Below, in pieces: positions 620-3,236 of a stretch of 29,617 nt of DNA. Source of the DNA: an uncultured Candidatus Saccharibacteria bacterium (lineage in GTDB: Bacteria; Patescibacteriota; WWE3; JAUXAW01; CAYREW01); contig CAYREW010000003.1 in NCBI GenBank assembly GCA_964423535.1, forward strand, positions 1 to 29,617, read 5' to 3'. Each line of letters opens with the position of its first letter. Position 1 is the first letter of the stretch. The notes beneath the pieces were generated by a model. That model was not told the origin of the DNA, did no database searches, and saw only the letters and a program-made list of their open reading frames with translations. A program made the position numbers and the translations under genes.

Positions 620-733
620 CCGCCCGCAGGGCGGGAAATTCCAAATCCCAAAATCCAAATCCCAAAATAAGGAAATTACCTTAATTTGAAAATTGTAAAT
701 TGAAAATTGTAAATTCCCTGTCCTACGGACAGG
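620..733 (-). repeat. Insert in 23S H68 variable arm (114 nt)
   Basis: Replaces about 30 nt near E. coli 1860-1880; hairpins ccgccc-gca-gggcgg and cctgtcc-tac-ggacagg flank an AT-rich 7-mer-periodic core. Confidence 0.85.
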
Positions 734-846
734 TCCTCTTAACTTGCTGGCATTGGGCAGGCTTCAGCCCCTATACATCAGCTTGCGCTTTAGCAGAGAC
801 CTGTGTTTTTGATAAACAGTCGCTTGAGCCATTTCTGTGCCCCCCA

Positions 847-1031
847 CCTCACACTCCGCGCGAGGAAATCCTAAATCCTAAATCCGAAGCTCCAAACTGT
901 TAAATCTAGAGCTGTAAACAAAACCGTTTCAAAATCTAAATACTGCTTGTTTAGTATTTTAAATTTTGTATTTCGAATTTGTTTGGAAATTAGGGTTTCG
1001 TGCTTAGAATTTCCTTGTGCGAAGCACAAGG
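847..1031 (-). repeat. Insert in 23S H63 (185 nt), family A
   Basis: Between conserved H62/H64 flanks; twin terminal hairpins; 147-nt core nearly identical to 2830-2996. Confidence 0.9.
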
Positions 1032-1571
1032 AAGGGCTGCCTTTTCCCAAAGTTACGGCAGTAATTTGCCTAGTTCCTTAACCACCGTTATCTCGCTCGC
1101 CTTAGAATACTCTTCTTGTCTACCTGTGGCGGTTTGCGGTACGGATTTATTATTTCTATAGCTTAGAGGCTTTTCTCGGAGACTTAACGCAGTAGAATCC
1201 CCCGACAAGTCGGAGTCTTCCACAGCTCGCTTTAAACGCAGGTGCGGATTTACCTACACCCACTAACTTGCTGCTTAAACGGCCAACCATATGGCCGCTC
1301 TACTTATCAAGTCCCGTCACCCCATCAGCAAAAATAATAAAGTAACGGAATATTAACCGTTTGCCCATCAGCTACCCCCCACCTGAAGCGGGGACTTGCC
1401 TTAGGACCGACTAACCCTACGTCGACGAACGTTGCGTAGGAAACCTTAGACTTTCGGCGATCCGGATTCTCACCGGATTTACACGTTACTCATGCCGGCA
1501 TTCTCACTTCTTAGCGCTCCAGACAAACTCACATTTGTCCTTCACCGCCCTAAGAACGCTCCCCTACCACA

Positions 1572-1732
1572 CCGCTGCGCAGCAGCGGAAATCCGAAACC
1601 CTAAACCCTAAGAACCAAATAAATACTAAAAACTAAACAACAATTCTTTTTTTTAGAATTTAGTGTTTCTTGTTTTGAGTTTATTTGGAACTTATAATTT
1701 CGAATTTCGTGCTTCCCGATGCTACGCATCGG
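1572..1732 (-). repeat. Intervening sequence in 23S H45 (161 nt)
   Basis: At the classical IVS site near E. coli 1170; ccgctgc-gca-gcagcgg and ccgatgc-tac-gcatcgg flank an AT-rich imperfect hairpin. Confidence 0.9.
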
Positions 1733-2369
1733 TATCCGCGACTTCGGTACAGAGCTTAAGCCCCGTTGAATTTTCGGCGCAGAAATACCAAGTCGACCAG
1801 TGAGCTATTACGCACTCTTTAAAGGATGGCTGCCTCTAGGCCAACCTCCTGGCTGTCTAAGTATTTCTACCTCCTTTTCCACTGAGCTCTGATTTAAGGA
1901 CCTTAGTCGGCGATCTGGGATGTTTCCCTTTTGACACATGGAACTTAGCTCCCATGGCCTGACTAGCACACACACTTTTAGGCATTCGGAGTTTGGTAGG
2001 ATGGAATACCTCTCACGAGGCTTCGCATCCTTCCAGTAGCTCTACCTCCTAAAAGCTTAAGTGTACCGCTAGCCCAAAAACTATTTCGGGGAGAGCCAGC
2101 TATCTCCAGGTTCGATTGGCATATTACCACTACCCTCAGCTCATCCAAAGCTTTTGCCTTAGCTAATGGTTCGGACCTCCCTCCGATTTTCATCAGAGTT
2201 CATCCTGGCCAAGGGTAGATCACCTGGTTTCGGGTCTGTACTCAGCTGTCTGCAGTAAACTGCACCCCCTGTTAAGAGTCGCTTTCGCTACGCCTTCGCC
2301 ACTAAAATGGCTTAGACTAAACAGGCTGAATACAACTCGCCGGCTCATTCTTCAATAGGCACAACATCA

Positions 2370-2505
2370 CCTCGCGCGCAGCGCGAGGAAATCAACTTTT
2401 TCTGCCGCCAGAAGCGGCAATCGTAAGAGACCTAAGATTCTTAAGTATCTTACGAGTTTCGACTTACATCGAAACAAGTGAGATTTCCTTGTGCTACGCA
2501 CAAGG
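2370..2505 (-). repeat. Intervening sequence in 23S H25 (136 nt), family B
   Basis: At the classical IVS site near E. coli 550; twin hairpins; 98-nt core nearly identical to 3122-3219. Confidence 0.9.
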
Positions 2506-2810
2506 CTTTGTCAGCTTGTAAGCAAATGGTTTCAGGTTCTATTTCACTCCCCTCCCGGGGTTCTTTTCACCTTTCCCTCACGGTACTTGTTCACTATCGG
2601 TCGCTAAAAGTATTTAGCCTTGGGCCTAGGTCGGCCCTGTTTCCCACAAGATTTCTCGGGTCCCGTGGTACTCAGGAAACATTGCAAGAAGTTCAGTTAC
2701 CTTTCGAATACGGGGCTGTTGCCCTCTATGGCCTTGTTTTCCAACAAGTTCTTCTAGGTAACTAAATTTGTAACTTCTTTGATATTAAAATCTAGCAATG
2801 TCCTACAACA

Positions 2811-3015
2811 CCTCGCCCTACGGGCGAGGAAATCCTAAATCCTAAATCCCTGCCTGCCGGCAGGCAGGCGAAGCTCCAAACTGTTTAATCTGGAGCTGTA
2901 AACAAACCCGTTTCAAAATATCAACAATAATTGTTTAGTATTTTGAATTTTGTATTTCGAATTTGTTTGGAAATTAGGGTTTCGTGCTTAGAATTTCCTT
3001 GTCCGTAGGACAAGG
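2811..3015 (-). repeat. Insert in 23S H15/H16 region (205 nt), family A plus a 20-bp palindrome
   Basis: Near E. coli 270; same core as 866-1012 plus cctgcctgccggcaggcagg at 2849-2868. Confidence 0.88.
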
Positions 3016-3103
3016 TTTGGGCTTTTCCCTGTTCACTCGCCGCTACTTAGGGAATTTTTTCTTTTCCTTAGCCTACTTGGATGTTTCAGTTCGACTGGTT
3101 CCT

Positions 3104-3236
3104 CCCGCGCGCTGCGCACGAAAATCAACTTTTTCTGCCGCCAGAAGCGGCAGTCGTAAGAAACATAAGATTCTTAAGTATCTTACGAGTTTCGACTCAC
3201 ATCGAAACAGGTTGCATTTCCGTGTGCAACGCACGG
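3104..3236 (-). repeat. Insert in 23S H10 (about 133 nt), family B
   Basis: Between H9 and conserved GAACTGAAACATC; core matches the H25 insert. Confidence 0.85.

What the first reader, a model, noticed from the sequence alone, without database searches (positions are those of the whole stretch)
620..3236. Six non-coding inserts in one 23S gene, four outside the classical IVS helices
Inserts of 114-205 nt sit in H68, H63, H45, H25, H15/16 and H10 (about 930 nt in total). H25 and H45 are the known RNase III-excised IVS sites. If all are excised the LSU rRNA is in at least 7 pieces; if retained they are large AU-rich expansion segments in a small-genome lineage.
Basis: partly seen in the sequence, partly recalled or inferred. 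Interest (0 to 1): 0.68.

Follow-up and report, generated by a model that had tools for sequence, protein, structure and literature searches.

The report
Hairpin cassettes docked in 23S rRNA
One ribosomal RNA gene of an ultra-small (Patescibacteria) bacterium carries six short non-coding hairpin inserts, a situation already known for this group; new here is that each insert sits on the same conserved 17-base-pair stem and that four carry filler copied from repeats scattered through the genome.

Summary

The general phenomenon is not new. Published surveys find insertions in 82% of CPR 23S genes, up to 16 per rRNA gene, and already call short non-intron ones at two recurrent sites that match known IVS positions probable RNase III-type IVS. 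Relatives carry varying subsets of the same six sites.

What I did not find described:
- H11/H25 and H15/H63 are paralogous pairs.
- The AU-rich filler of H15, H45 and H63 belongs to a repeat family with 16 further loci in this 0.75-Mb genome, mostly intergenic. One dispersed copy encloses two "23S-IVS protein" genes.
- Five of the six inserts (H11 departs), and 24 cassettes in 11 genomes, are joined to the rRNA by one stem, L (CUUGUSC-NNN-GSACAAG) paired with R (CUCGCSC-NNN-GSGCGAG). It is always in that orientation, is found almost only in rRNA genes, and has a covarying centre.

RNase III is encoded. Excision giving at least 7 rRNA pieces is the most likely fate but is not shown, because no usable RNA data exist.

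This scan earlier noted IVS-type hairpin cassettes in operon spacers of other genomes.

The parts
1..3389 (-). 23S rRNA gene, 5' 86% (Rfam model positions 1-2526 of 2925); the contig ends near E. coli position 2500
   Evidence: 2012 bits
3105..3236 (-). Insert in H11 (132 nt). Three-branch filler of family A, paralogue of the H25 insert. Its L/R-like end hairpins are atypical.
   Evidence: (89% identity over 129 nt to 2373-2501)
2811..3015 (-). Insert in H15 (205 nt). L hairpin 2997-3015, R hairpin 2811-2829. AU-rich heptamer-array filler of family B, paralogue of the H63 insert.
   Evidence: (91% over 147 nt)
2849..2868 (.). Exact 20-nt GC palindrome nested in the H15 filler and absent from the H63 paralogue; identical or closely related copies occur in dispersed cassettes on C9, C18 and C11
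2370..2505 (-). Insert in H25 (136 nt). L hairpin 2487-2505, R hairpin 2370-2388. Family A filler made of three hairpins.
1572..1732 (-). Insert in H45 (161 nt). L-type hairpin 1716-1732, R-type hairpin 1572-1588. AU-rich heptamer-array filler.
   Evidence: (bridged by X1 contig 989-1822)
847..1031 (-). Insert in H63 (185 nt). L hairpin 1014-1030, degenerate R hairpin about 847-865. Family B filler.
619..733 (-). Insert in the H68 tip (115 nt). L-type hairpin 717-733, R-type hairpin 619-635. AU-rich filler with GC 0.23.
   Evidence: (bridged by X1 contig 48-811)
4931..5075 (-). Related cassette inside the large 16S insert (weak family match; hairpin 5053-5069 has the same stem as the H45 L hairpin); not studied further
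23622..23921 (-). One of six PF05635 (23S_rRNA_IVP / four-helix-bundle) genes of the genome, flanked by inverted repeat arms of another repeat unit: a loaded cassette of the same kind

Best explanation
The six inserts are ORF-less IVS-type hairpin cassettes that replace the apical loops of six surface helices of 23S rRNA in a Microgenomates-group Patescibacterium. Each has two layers. The outer layer is a conserved docking stem of about 17 bp, seen in five of the six (the H11 ends depart from it). Its 5' strand L (CUUGUSC-NNN-GSACAAG) pairs with its 3' strand R (CUCGCSC-NNN-GSGCGAG), and each strand can also fold as its own triloop hairpin. This stem is shared by many genera and by all insertion sites, and it occurs almost only in rRNA genes. 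The inner layer is a filler that is specific to the genome. Here there are two families. In three inserts (H15, H45, H63) the filler is the genome's own AU-rich heptamer-array hairpin repeat, which also fills intergenic spacers and in one place encloses two PF05635 '23S-IVS protein' genes. Shown: the anatomy, the paralogy, the dispersed relatives, the conservation and covariation of the stem, variable occupancy in relatives, and presence of rnc. Inferred: the cassettes are transcribed within pre-23S and fold into 50-90-bp rods. RNase III then cuts the rod, plausibly at or near the pseudo-symmetric L:R stem, without religation. The outer half of the stem (7 bp, two of them G.U) would then hold the pieces together, giving at least 7 pieces of 23S rRNA.
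For: Positions in helix tips. No intron or ribozyme match. Strong folds. Paralogous pairs, 89% over 129 nt and 91% over 147 nt. Their differences break none of the predicted pairs, and 2-3 pairs per comparison changed on both sides. Dispersed relatives: 16 further loci by nhmmer (15 hit by the H15/H45/H63 inserts, one by the H11/H25 inserts), against 0 hits for 36 shuffled or reversed control queries; most lie in gaps between genes. Loaded copy: arms around C11:9145-9820 (two PF05635 genes) match an empty cassette at 92% over 61 nt and the H45, H63 and H15 inserts at 76-87% over 31-49 nt. Docking stem: the motif occurs 85 times in 31 of 134 class genomes against 20 for the reversed control, and in genomes with several hits almost all lie inside 23S or 16S. 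In 24 cassettes from 11 genomes L is always 5' in the rRNA sense. The pairing pattern is fixed in 21-22 of the 24 (U.G at positions 3 and 5, A.C at 13 and 15). The three central positions show 8 different complementary pairs of triplets, with 72 of 72 positions paired. Insert-free relatives have unrelated tips at these helices. RNase III gene: TIGR02191, 171.7 bits. DNA contigs in run X2, most likely from a related strain, lack the H68 and H45 inserts. Literature: IVS replace tetraloops of H9, H25 and H45 and are cut mid-stem by RNase III (PMC4990558); short non-intron insertions of CPR 23S genes at two recurrent sites were judged IVS-like (PMC11270868); most CPR rRNA insertions were predicted to be removed, from comparison of genes and transcripts (Brown et al. 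2015, as cited in PMC9297842).
Against: There is no transcript evidence for this organism. The RNA runs found hold only short conserved stretches (share 0.12 or less), so neither cleavage nor fragmentation is shown. Four of the sites (H11, H15, H63, H68) have no experimentally proven bacterial IVS precedent that I could read. The H68 tip is not among the established insertion sites. The stem also fits a DNA-level explanation (terminal inverted repeats of a mobile element), so its conservation need not reflect RNA processing. Each strand being a perfect hairpin, while the L:R duplex keeps two A.C mismatches, suggests that the twin-hairpin fold may be the selected one. The H11 insert ends do not fit the L/R consensus well.
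Confidence: 0.6

Rival explanations
1. The inserts are retained in the mature ribosome as expansion segments: long flexible rods projecting from the surface, as in eukaryotic ES5L (H15), ES7L (H25), ES15L (H45) and ES27L (H63).
For: Four of the six sites coincide with eukaryotic expansion-segment sites (established knowledge, recalled). The structure is maintained between paralogues. E. coli ribosomes tolerate unprocessed IVS (Gregory et al. 1996, as cited in PMC8708148). Nothing here shows cleavage.
Against: Occupancy and content vary among relatives, and DNA contigs of run X2 (most likely a related strain) lack the H45 and H68 inserts. The filler has intergenic composition and is shared with selfish-looking intergenic repeats. 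CPR rRNA insertions were reported as mostly absent from transcripts (PMC9297842, citing Brown 2015). rnc is present.
Confidence: 0.25
2. The L and R hairpins are the ends of a DNA-level mobile element or the sites of a recombination system (REP/BIME- or IS200-like hairpins used by a Y1/RAYT transposase, or att-like sites), and their conservation reflects mobility, not RNA processing. This does not exclude either RNA fate.
For: L and R are inverted repeats with distinct left and right versions. The genome has three Y1_Tnp/RAYT-like genes, two of them flanked by inverted hairpins. It holds 240 triloop hairpins against about 48 in shuffles. Solo L or solo R hairpins sit at H63 of G013 and G011, and a nearly empty L-R pair at H25 of G013. 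Near-identical filler sits between different L/R variants at H15 and H63.
Against: The L/R sequences occur almost only inside rRNA genes and always in one orientation relative to the transcript. The dispersed copies of the filler lack them. The hairpins flanking the RAYT-like genes have other sequences. No target-site duplication was seen.
Confidence: 0.3
3. The inserts are true spliced elements: cut out by an unidentified endonuclease and the rRNA religated, for example by RtcB.
For: A full-length RtcB gene is kept in this 0.75-Mb genome (500 bits). The L:R stem brings the two junctions together.
Against: No group I, group II or self-cleaving ribozyme match even at E<=1. RNase III ends (5'-phosphate, 3'-OH; established knowledge) are not RtcB substrates. 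No splicing endonuclease was identified, and I did not search for one. All studied bacterial IVS are not religated (PMC4990558).
Confidence: 0.07
4. Some of the inserts are assembly artefacts created by repeats.
For: H11/H25 and H15/H63 are repeats, and the listed Logan contigs break at them. Joints between repeat copies appear in the contig graph (table 5c).
Against: The H68 and H45 inserts are bridged by independent contigs without differences. The repeated copies differ by 9-18% and have different L/R variants. Gene order is collinear with the 23S model. The same architecture occurs in many independent assemblies.
Confidence: 0.03

Closest known systems
Bacterial 23S rRNA intervening sequences (Salmonella, Yersinia, Campylobacter, Leptospira, Coxiella, alpha-proteobacteria)
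   Same: They replace the small apical loop of a 23S helix (H9, H25, H45) with an extended stem-loop formed by complementary ends. They are 100-450 nt long, sporadic among relatives and suspected to be mobile. Some carry a PF05635 (S23p) ORF, a gene family present six times in this genome, once inside the same kind of arms. RNase III is encoded.
   Different: Here there are six per gene instead of one or two, and four of the helices (H11, H15, H63, H68) are not the classical ones. All six lack an ORF. A conserved L:R docking stem is shared across sites and genera. The filler is shared with intergenic repeats. Excision is not demonstrated.
rRNA insertion sequences of CPR bacteria (Brown et al. 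2015; Tsurumaki et al. 2022, PMC9297842; 2024, PMC11270868)
   Same: Same phylum-level group and same phenomenon: 82% of 23S genes carry insertions, up to 16 per rRNA gene, at recurrent sites. The short non-intron, ORF-less class (<200 bp) is reported, and at two recurrent sites that match known IVS positions it is interpreted as RNase III-type IVS. PF05635 ORFs are seen in some.
   Different: In the text I read, those surveys concentrate on group I/II introns and LAGLIDADG endonucleases. I found no description there of the conserved L/R stem, of its fixed orientation, of paralogy between sites, or of kinship with dispersed intergenic cassettes.
Eukaryotic rRNA expansion segments (ES5L, ES7L, ES15L, ES27L)
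   Same: Same helices (H15, H25, H45, H63): tips on the solvent side that tolerate large additions (recalled knowledge).
   Different: Expansion segments are retained, conserved within lineages and GC-rich in many taxa. These inserts vary between close relatives and share sequence with selfish-looking repeats.
Dispersed palindromic repeats that form RNA hairpins (REP/BIME with RAYT transposases; Neisseria Correia elements cut by RNase III; Rickettsia palindromic elements; mitochondrial double-hairpin elements)
   Same: Short non-autonomous palindromic units in many copies, mosaic build from hairpin modules, location in intergenic spacers. For some of these families insertion into RNA genes or RNase III cleavage of the transcribed hairpin is known (recalled, not checked here). 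RAYT-like genes flanked by inverted hairpins exist in this genome.
   Different: There is no sequence relation to those families. The arms are arrays of a roughly 7-nt unit. A link between the RAYT-like genes and these cassettes was not established.
IVS-type hairpin cassettes noted earlier in this scan (four-helix-bundle gene between inverted 7-8-nt repeat arrays in operon spacers)
   Same: Same build: inverted arrays of a short genome-specific repeat, with or without a PF05635 gene, filling gene junctions.
   Different: Those notes concerned copies in protein operons of other genomes. Here empty copies sit in the rRNA itself, next to intergenic empty and loaded copies of the same family, and the rRNA copies carry an extra L/R adaptor.

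Membership tests
23S rRNA intervening sequence (RNase III-excised IVS) | Lies inside the 23S gene and replaces the apical loop of a helix | tested here: met
   Rfam and E. coli alignments place all six at helix tips; insert-free relatives have short loops there
23S rRNA intervening sequence (RNase III-excised IVS) | Complementary termini forming a long stem | tested here: met
   MFE rods with 73-82% of bases paired, z -7 to -11; 17-bp L:R stem with covariation
23S rRNA intervening sequence (RNase III-excised IVS) | Removed from the transcript without religation, giving fragmented 23S rRNA | not testable with these tools
   No RNA run holds this organism beyond conserved stretches
23S rRNA intervening sequence (RNase III-excised IVS) | RNase III available in the cell | tested here: met
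   C36:6443-6832, PF14622 135 bits, TIGR02191 171.7 bits, above the cut-off
23S rRNA intervening sequence (RNase III-excised IVS) | Sporadic presence among relatives | tested here: met
   Occupancy matrix of 29 relatives; DNA forms in run X2 without the H45 and H68 inserts
Group I / group II intron or self-cleaving ribozyme | Match to a catalytic RNA family | tested here: not met
   cmscan at E<=1 over 560-3300 gives only weak miRNA-precursor- or snoRNA-like hairpin noise
Retained expansion segment | Fixed and homologous among relatives | tested here: not met
   Sites recur, but presence and filler differ between genomes
Retained expansion segment | Present in mature rRNA | not testable with these tools
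   No usable RNA data
Dispersed palindromic repeat (MITE / REP-BIME-like) | Many related copies at unrelated loci | tested here: met
   16 loci outside the rRNA operon by nhmmer (15 for the H15/H45/H63 filler, one for the H11/H25 filler); 0 hits for 36 control queries. A 33-nt hairpin module of the H11/H25 filler recurs at 5 further loci. Related copies occur in 18 of 134 class genomes, G000 included
Dispersed palindromic repeat (MITE / REP-BIME-like) | Target-site duplication, or a cognate transposase acting on the ends | tested here: inconclusive
   No duplication seen. Three RAYT-like genes exist (41-43 bits on NF047646, below its cut-off of 80; above the Pfam Y1_Tnp cut-off), but their flanking hairpins differ from L/R

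The most novel reading that the evidence does not exclude
The L:R stem is a lineage-wide, rRNA-specific docking and removal signal. It would be a pseudo-two-fold-symmetric 17-bp duplex with fixed wobble and mismatch positions and a free but covarying centre. A dimeric nuclease (RNase III or another) would cut it near its dyad. The stable outer half would stay as the clasp that holds the rRNA fragments, and the mismatched inner half would leave with the filler. Such a signal would make any hairpin cassette harmless once it lands between L and R, which could explain how these bacteria tolerate rampant colonisation of their single rRNA operon. It may double as the DNA site where cassettes are exchanged.
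Probability: 0.3. Interest if true: 0.75.

Novelty: new variant of a known kind. Interest (0 to 1): 0.5.

Why it matters
Multiple insertions in CPR rRNA genes are already documented, so the count of six is not surprising by itself. The useful result is a concrete, testable anatomy for the poorly characterised short non-intron class. That anatomy is a conserved adaptor stem plus exchangeable, genome-specific filler related to intergenic cassettes that can carry the orphan '23S-IVS protein' gene. It links classical IVS, CPR rRNA insertions and dispersed hairpin cassettes in one genome. It also gives a defined RNA substrate for testing how these organisms process a 23S rRNA that may consist of seven or more pieces. 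Finally, the motif can be used to find and mask such inserts when CPR rRNA genes are used for phylogeny or for primer and probe design.

Tried and rejected
1. Transcript mapping. Two searches for sequencing runs found only DNA runs that hold the locus (X1 0.87, X2-X4 0.25-0.34). The RNA runs hold 0.12 or less of the words. Laying X6 and X7 gave only short contigs on universally conserved stretches, so excision versus retention could not be tested.

2. Pairwise MAFFT against E. coli misaligned the 5' domain. It was replaced by hmmalign to an HMM of insert-free relatives, which still maps the H15 insert to an odd E. coli coordinate because E. coli lacks H15. The Rfam alignment was used for H11 and H15.

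3. A permissive Rfam scan for introns and ribozymes found nothing relevant.

4. The family A insert (H25) has almost no relatives in 134 class genomes: only module-level hits.

5. A RAYT link was considered. The genes exist and two look REPtron-like, but their hairpins are unrelated to L/R, so the link is not claimed.

6. I tried to use the G.U and A.C asymmetry to prove selection on the sense RNA. The sense strand gives 3 G.U plus 2 A.C and the antisense strand 2 G.U plus 3 A.C, which is too small a difference to decide.

7. Brown et al. 2015 is not held in the library; its result is cited only through PMC9297842 and PMC11270868.

8. The first genome-contig scan, with the P-type ATPase, found no relative. 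The scan with FtsH placed the organism among Microgenomates-group Patescibacteria.
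Full report
**What is there.**
Rfam finds an rRNA operon on the minus strand:
- 16S at 7051-4439. It is 2613 nt, so it also carries inserts.
- tRNA-Ile and tRNA-Ala.
- A bacterial 23S at 3389-1, which runs off the contig at model position 2526 of 2925.

The window is contig C3 of a 749,637-bp assembly with 81 contigs, 86% complete and 41% GC. Its FtsH is 51-62% identical to proteins of MAGs labelled Gottesmanbacteria, WWE3, Levybacteria, Roizmanbacteria, Woesebacteria and other Patescibacteria. [quoted passage not shown] The source is a microbial mat metagenome.

**Check of the observation.**
I aligned the gene to the Rfam model, to E. coli 23S and to an HMM built from insert-free relatives. 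All three show six large insertions. Each is bounded by terminal hairpins.

| Helix | Window coordinates | Length (nt) |
|---|---|---|
| H68 | 619-733 | 115 |
| H63 | 847-1031 | 185 |
| H45 | 1572-1732 | 161 |
| H25 | 2370-2505 | 136 |
| H15 | 2811-3015 | 205 |
| H11 | 3105-3236 | 132 |

- The 5'-most insert follows an intact H9 and an intact 20-nt H10. It therefore lies in the equivalent of E. coli 149-176, which is H11 and not H10.
- Filler GC is 0.23-0.29 in H68, H63 and H45, 0.36 in H15, and 0.39-0.41 in H25 and H11. The rRNA core is 0.50.
- A permissive Rfam scan at E<=1 finds no intron or ribozyme, only weak resemblance to miRNA-precursor hairpins.
- All six fold into long rods or branched rods, with 73-82% of bases paired and z of -7 to -11 against shuffles.

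**Are the inserts real DNA?**
- Independent Logan contigs of DNA run X1 cross the H68 insert (48-811) and the H45 insert (989-1822) without a single difference.
- The other four inserts are repeats, and the listed contigs stop at them.
- Those copies differ by 9-18%, carry different end variants, and sit in collinear 23S context.
- The same architecture recurs in many unrelated assemblies.
- In DNA run X2, contigs most likely from a related strain join 619 to 733 with 17 other letters and 1574 to 1727 with 6 letters. These DNA forms lack the H68 and H45 inserts.

**The inserts are paralogues and belong to dispersed repeat families.**
- H11 and H25 are 89% identical over 129 nt. H15 and H63 are 91% identical over 147 nt.
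- The H15 copy has an extra exact 20-nt GC palindrome.
- Between paralogues no predicted base pair is broken, and 2-3 pairs per comparison changed on both sides.
- nhmmer with the inserts finds 16 further loci in this genome. Fifteen are hit by the H15, H45 or H63 insert, one (a 41-nt match) by the H11/H25 inserts, and none by H68. A weak match also lies in the 16S insert.
- Thirty-six shuffled or reversed control queries gave no hit.
- Most of these loci fill the gap between two genes almost exactly.
- They are 100-170-nt palindromes built from a roughly 7-nt unit (GGATTTA and variants) around a conserved core (GCTCCAAATAAAT / ATTTATTTGGAGC).
- A 33-nt hairpin module of the H11/H25 family recurs at five other loci next to REP-like hairpins.
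- The genome has six PF05635 (23S_rRNA_IVP, four-helix-bundle) genes.
- The pair at C11:9145-9820 is enclosed by arms that match an empty cassette at 92% over 61 nt. The same arms match the H45, H63 and H15 inserts at 76-87% over 31-49 nt.
- The other PF05635 genes sit between inverted arrays of other short units.
- Earlier follow-ups in this scan described such cassettes in other genomes. Here the same family is seen in three states in one genome: loaded and intergenic, empty and intergenic, and empty inside rRNA.

**Relatives.**
Among 60 relatives, 37 yielded 23S sequence, with full genes of 2887-5086 nt. Each of the six sites is occupied in other genomes:

| Site | Other genomes occupied |
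|---|---|
| H9-11 | G013 |
| H15-18 | about ten genomes |
| H25 | G002, G003, G011, G017, G021, G023 |
| H45 | G002, G003, G011, G017, G023, G029, G060 |
| H63 | G008, G021, G023 |
| H68 | G003, G011 |

- No other genome in the sample has all six. G003 and G011 have four each.
- The filler differs between genomes but is the same across sites within a genome. Examples are AAAUCUC arrays in G013, AGAUCAA-type in G011 and GCUGAUUUUC-type in G003.
- G000-type filler is detectable in 18 of 134 genomes of the class, G000 included. It occurs both in rRNA and elsewhere.

**A conserved docking stem.**
The filler varies, but the junction with the rRNA does not.
- In the rRNA sense, a typical insert starts with L (CUUGUSC-NNN-GSACAAG) and ends with R (CUCGCSC-NNN-GSGCGAG). 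In G000 this holds literally for H15, H25 and H63. H45 and H68 carry variant sequences with the same or a similar pairing design. H11 departs from it.
- The degenerate motif occurs 85 times in 31 of 134 class genomes, against 20 for the reversed-pattern control.
- In genomes with several hits almost all lie inside the 23S or 16S gene.
- Insert-free relatives have unrelated tips at these helices.
- I tabulated 24 cassettes from 11 genomes, covering H15, H25, H45, H63, H68, H98, some 23S positions I did not assign to a helix, and 16S.
  - L is 5' of R in every one.
  - The L:R duplex has a fixed pattern: U.G at positions 3 and 5 (22 and 21 of 24) and A.C at positions 13 and 15 (21 of 24 each).
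  - Positions 6 and 12 each switch between C-G and G-C.
  - The three central positions take 8 different complementary pairs of triplets, with 72 of 72 positions paired.
- Each strand is also a perfect 7-bp triloop hairpin on its own. Both a continuous rod and a twin-hairpin junction are therefore possible, and the data do not decide between them.
- Solo L (G013 H63), solo R (G011 H63) and a nearly empty L-21 nt-R (G013 H25) also exist.
- The dispersed intergenic copies of the filler lack L and R. This argues that the stem is tied to the rRNA context rather than being simply the end of the mobile unit.

**How it most likely works.**
- By position, build, sporadic distribution and kinship with PF05635 cassettes, these are IVS-type elements.
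- Classical IVS replace the tetraloops of H9, H25 and H45, form a stem from complementary ends, and are cut mid-stem by RNase III without religation (PMC4990558, PMC8708148).
- The genome encodes RNase III.
- CPR surveys report insertions in 82% of 23S genes and up to 16 per rRNA gene. They describe a short ORF-less non-intron class that is interpreted as IVS at two recurrent sites matching known IVS positions (PMC11270868). Most insertions were predicted to be removed, from comparison of genes and transcripts (Brown 2015, via PMC9297842).
- I therefore rate excision by RNase III as the most likely fate (about 0.6). It would leave at least seven pieces held together by the helices, with the outer half of the L:R stem as clasp.
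- The idea that the pseudo-symmetric L:R stem is itself the cleavage site of the dimeric enzyme is my inference only.
- Retention as expansion segments stays possible (about 0.25).
- Splicing with religation is unlikely. RtcB is present, but no matching endonuclease or ribozyme was found.
- A DNA-level role of L and R, as element ends or recombination sites, is compatible with either RNA fate. Three RAYT-like genes, two with REPtron-like flanks, and a five-fold excess of triloop hairpins show that hairpin-based DNA mobility is plausible in this genome. I found no direct link to L and R.

**Verdict.**
Six non-coding inserts in a CPR 23S gene is a strong example of a documented phenomenon rather than a new one. 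Added here: the inserts are paralogous cassettes. Four of them draw their filler from the genome's dispersed hairpin-repeat population. A conserved, oriented, covarying stem specific to rRNA genes joins such cassettes to rRNA across many genera. I did not find this stem described in the papers I could read.

Noticed in passing
window 4439-7051: The 16S gene is 2613 nt. It scores best against the archaeal SSU model (880 bits), probably because inserts break the bacterial alignment. It has a 145-nt insert near 6730-6875 and a block of about 900 nt at about 4950-5850.
   Followed up: no
window 1 (contig start, about E. coli 23S position 2500): The contig breaks inside the 23S gene at a position where relatives carry large insertions (G002 206+598 nt, G053 333 nt, G046 291 nt near 2491-2499). 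The missing 3' end and the 5S gene were not found anywhere in the assembly, so the gene may hold more inserts than six.
   Followed up: partly
window 3613-3691 and 4051-4129: A 79-nt GC-rich repeat (86% identical) overlaps the 3' part of both tRNA-Ala and tRNA-Ile and extends downstream of them in the 16S-23S spacer.
   Followed up: no
G000 C38:3992-4309, C31:3131-3442, C3:23622-23921, C11:9145-9444, C11:9524-9820, C18:4569-4859: There are six PF05635 (23S_rRNA_IVP / Avd-like four-helix-bundle) genes in a 0.75-Mb genome. Several are flanked by inverted arrays of a short repeat whose unit differs from gene to gene.
   Followed up: partly
G000 C7:3458-4228, C7:13573-14343, C34:3495-4199: Three Y1_Tnp / RAYT-like genes of 234-256 aa. 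The two on C7 are each flanked by the same 9-10-bp triloop hairpin on both sides; around C7:3458-4228 the two copies have complementary loops (CTC and GAG), i.e. inverted orientation, like REPtrons. One of these hairpins (AACAGAGC-NNN-GCTCTGTT) recurs at eight or more loci.
   Followed up: partly
G000 whole genome: 240 perfect triloop hairpins with stems of 7 bp or more, against 40-54 in block shuffles. Most are closed by C-G. They fall into several stem families whose loops vary (for example AACCAAACGC-NNN-GCGTTTGGTT and CCATCCGCC-NNN-GGCGGATGG).
   Followed up: partly
G000 C7:19515-20801: A full-length RtcB RNA ligase gene (500 bits) is kept in this very small genome.
   Followed up: no
run X2, laid on window 619-733 and 1574-1727: DNA contigs of a second mat sample, most likely from a related strain, lack the H68 and H45 inserts (17 and 6 other letters in their place). 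This shows recent gain or loss.
   Followed up: partly
L013 (G002 23S), H68 region: The H68 tip of relative G002 reads like an L half and an R half fused without filler (GCUUGUGCGCAGCACGCGCUGCGUGCUAGC). It is possibly an emptied or unoccupied docking site.
   Followed up: no
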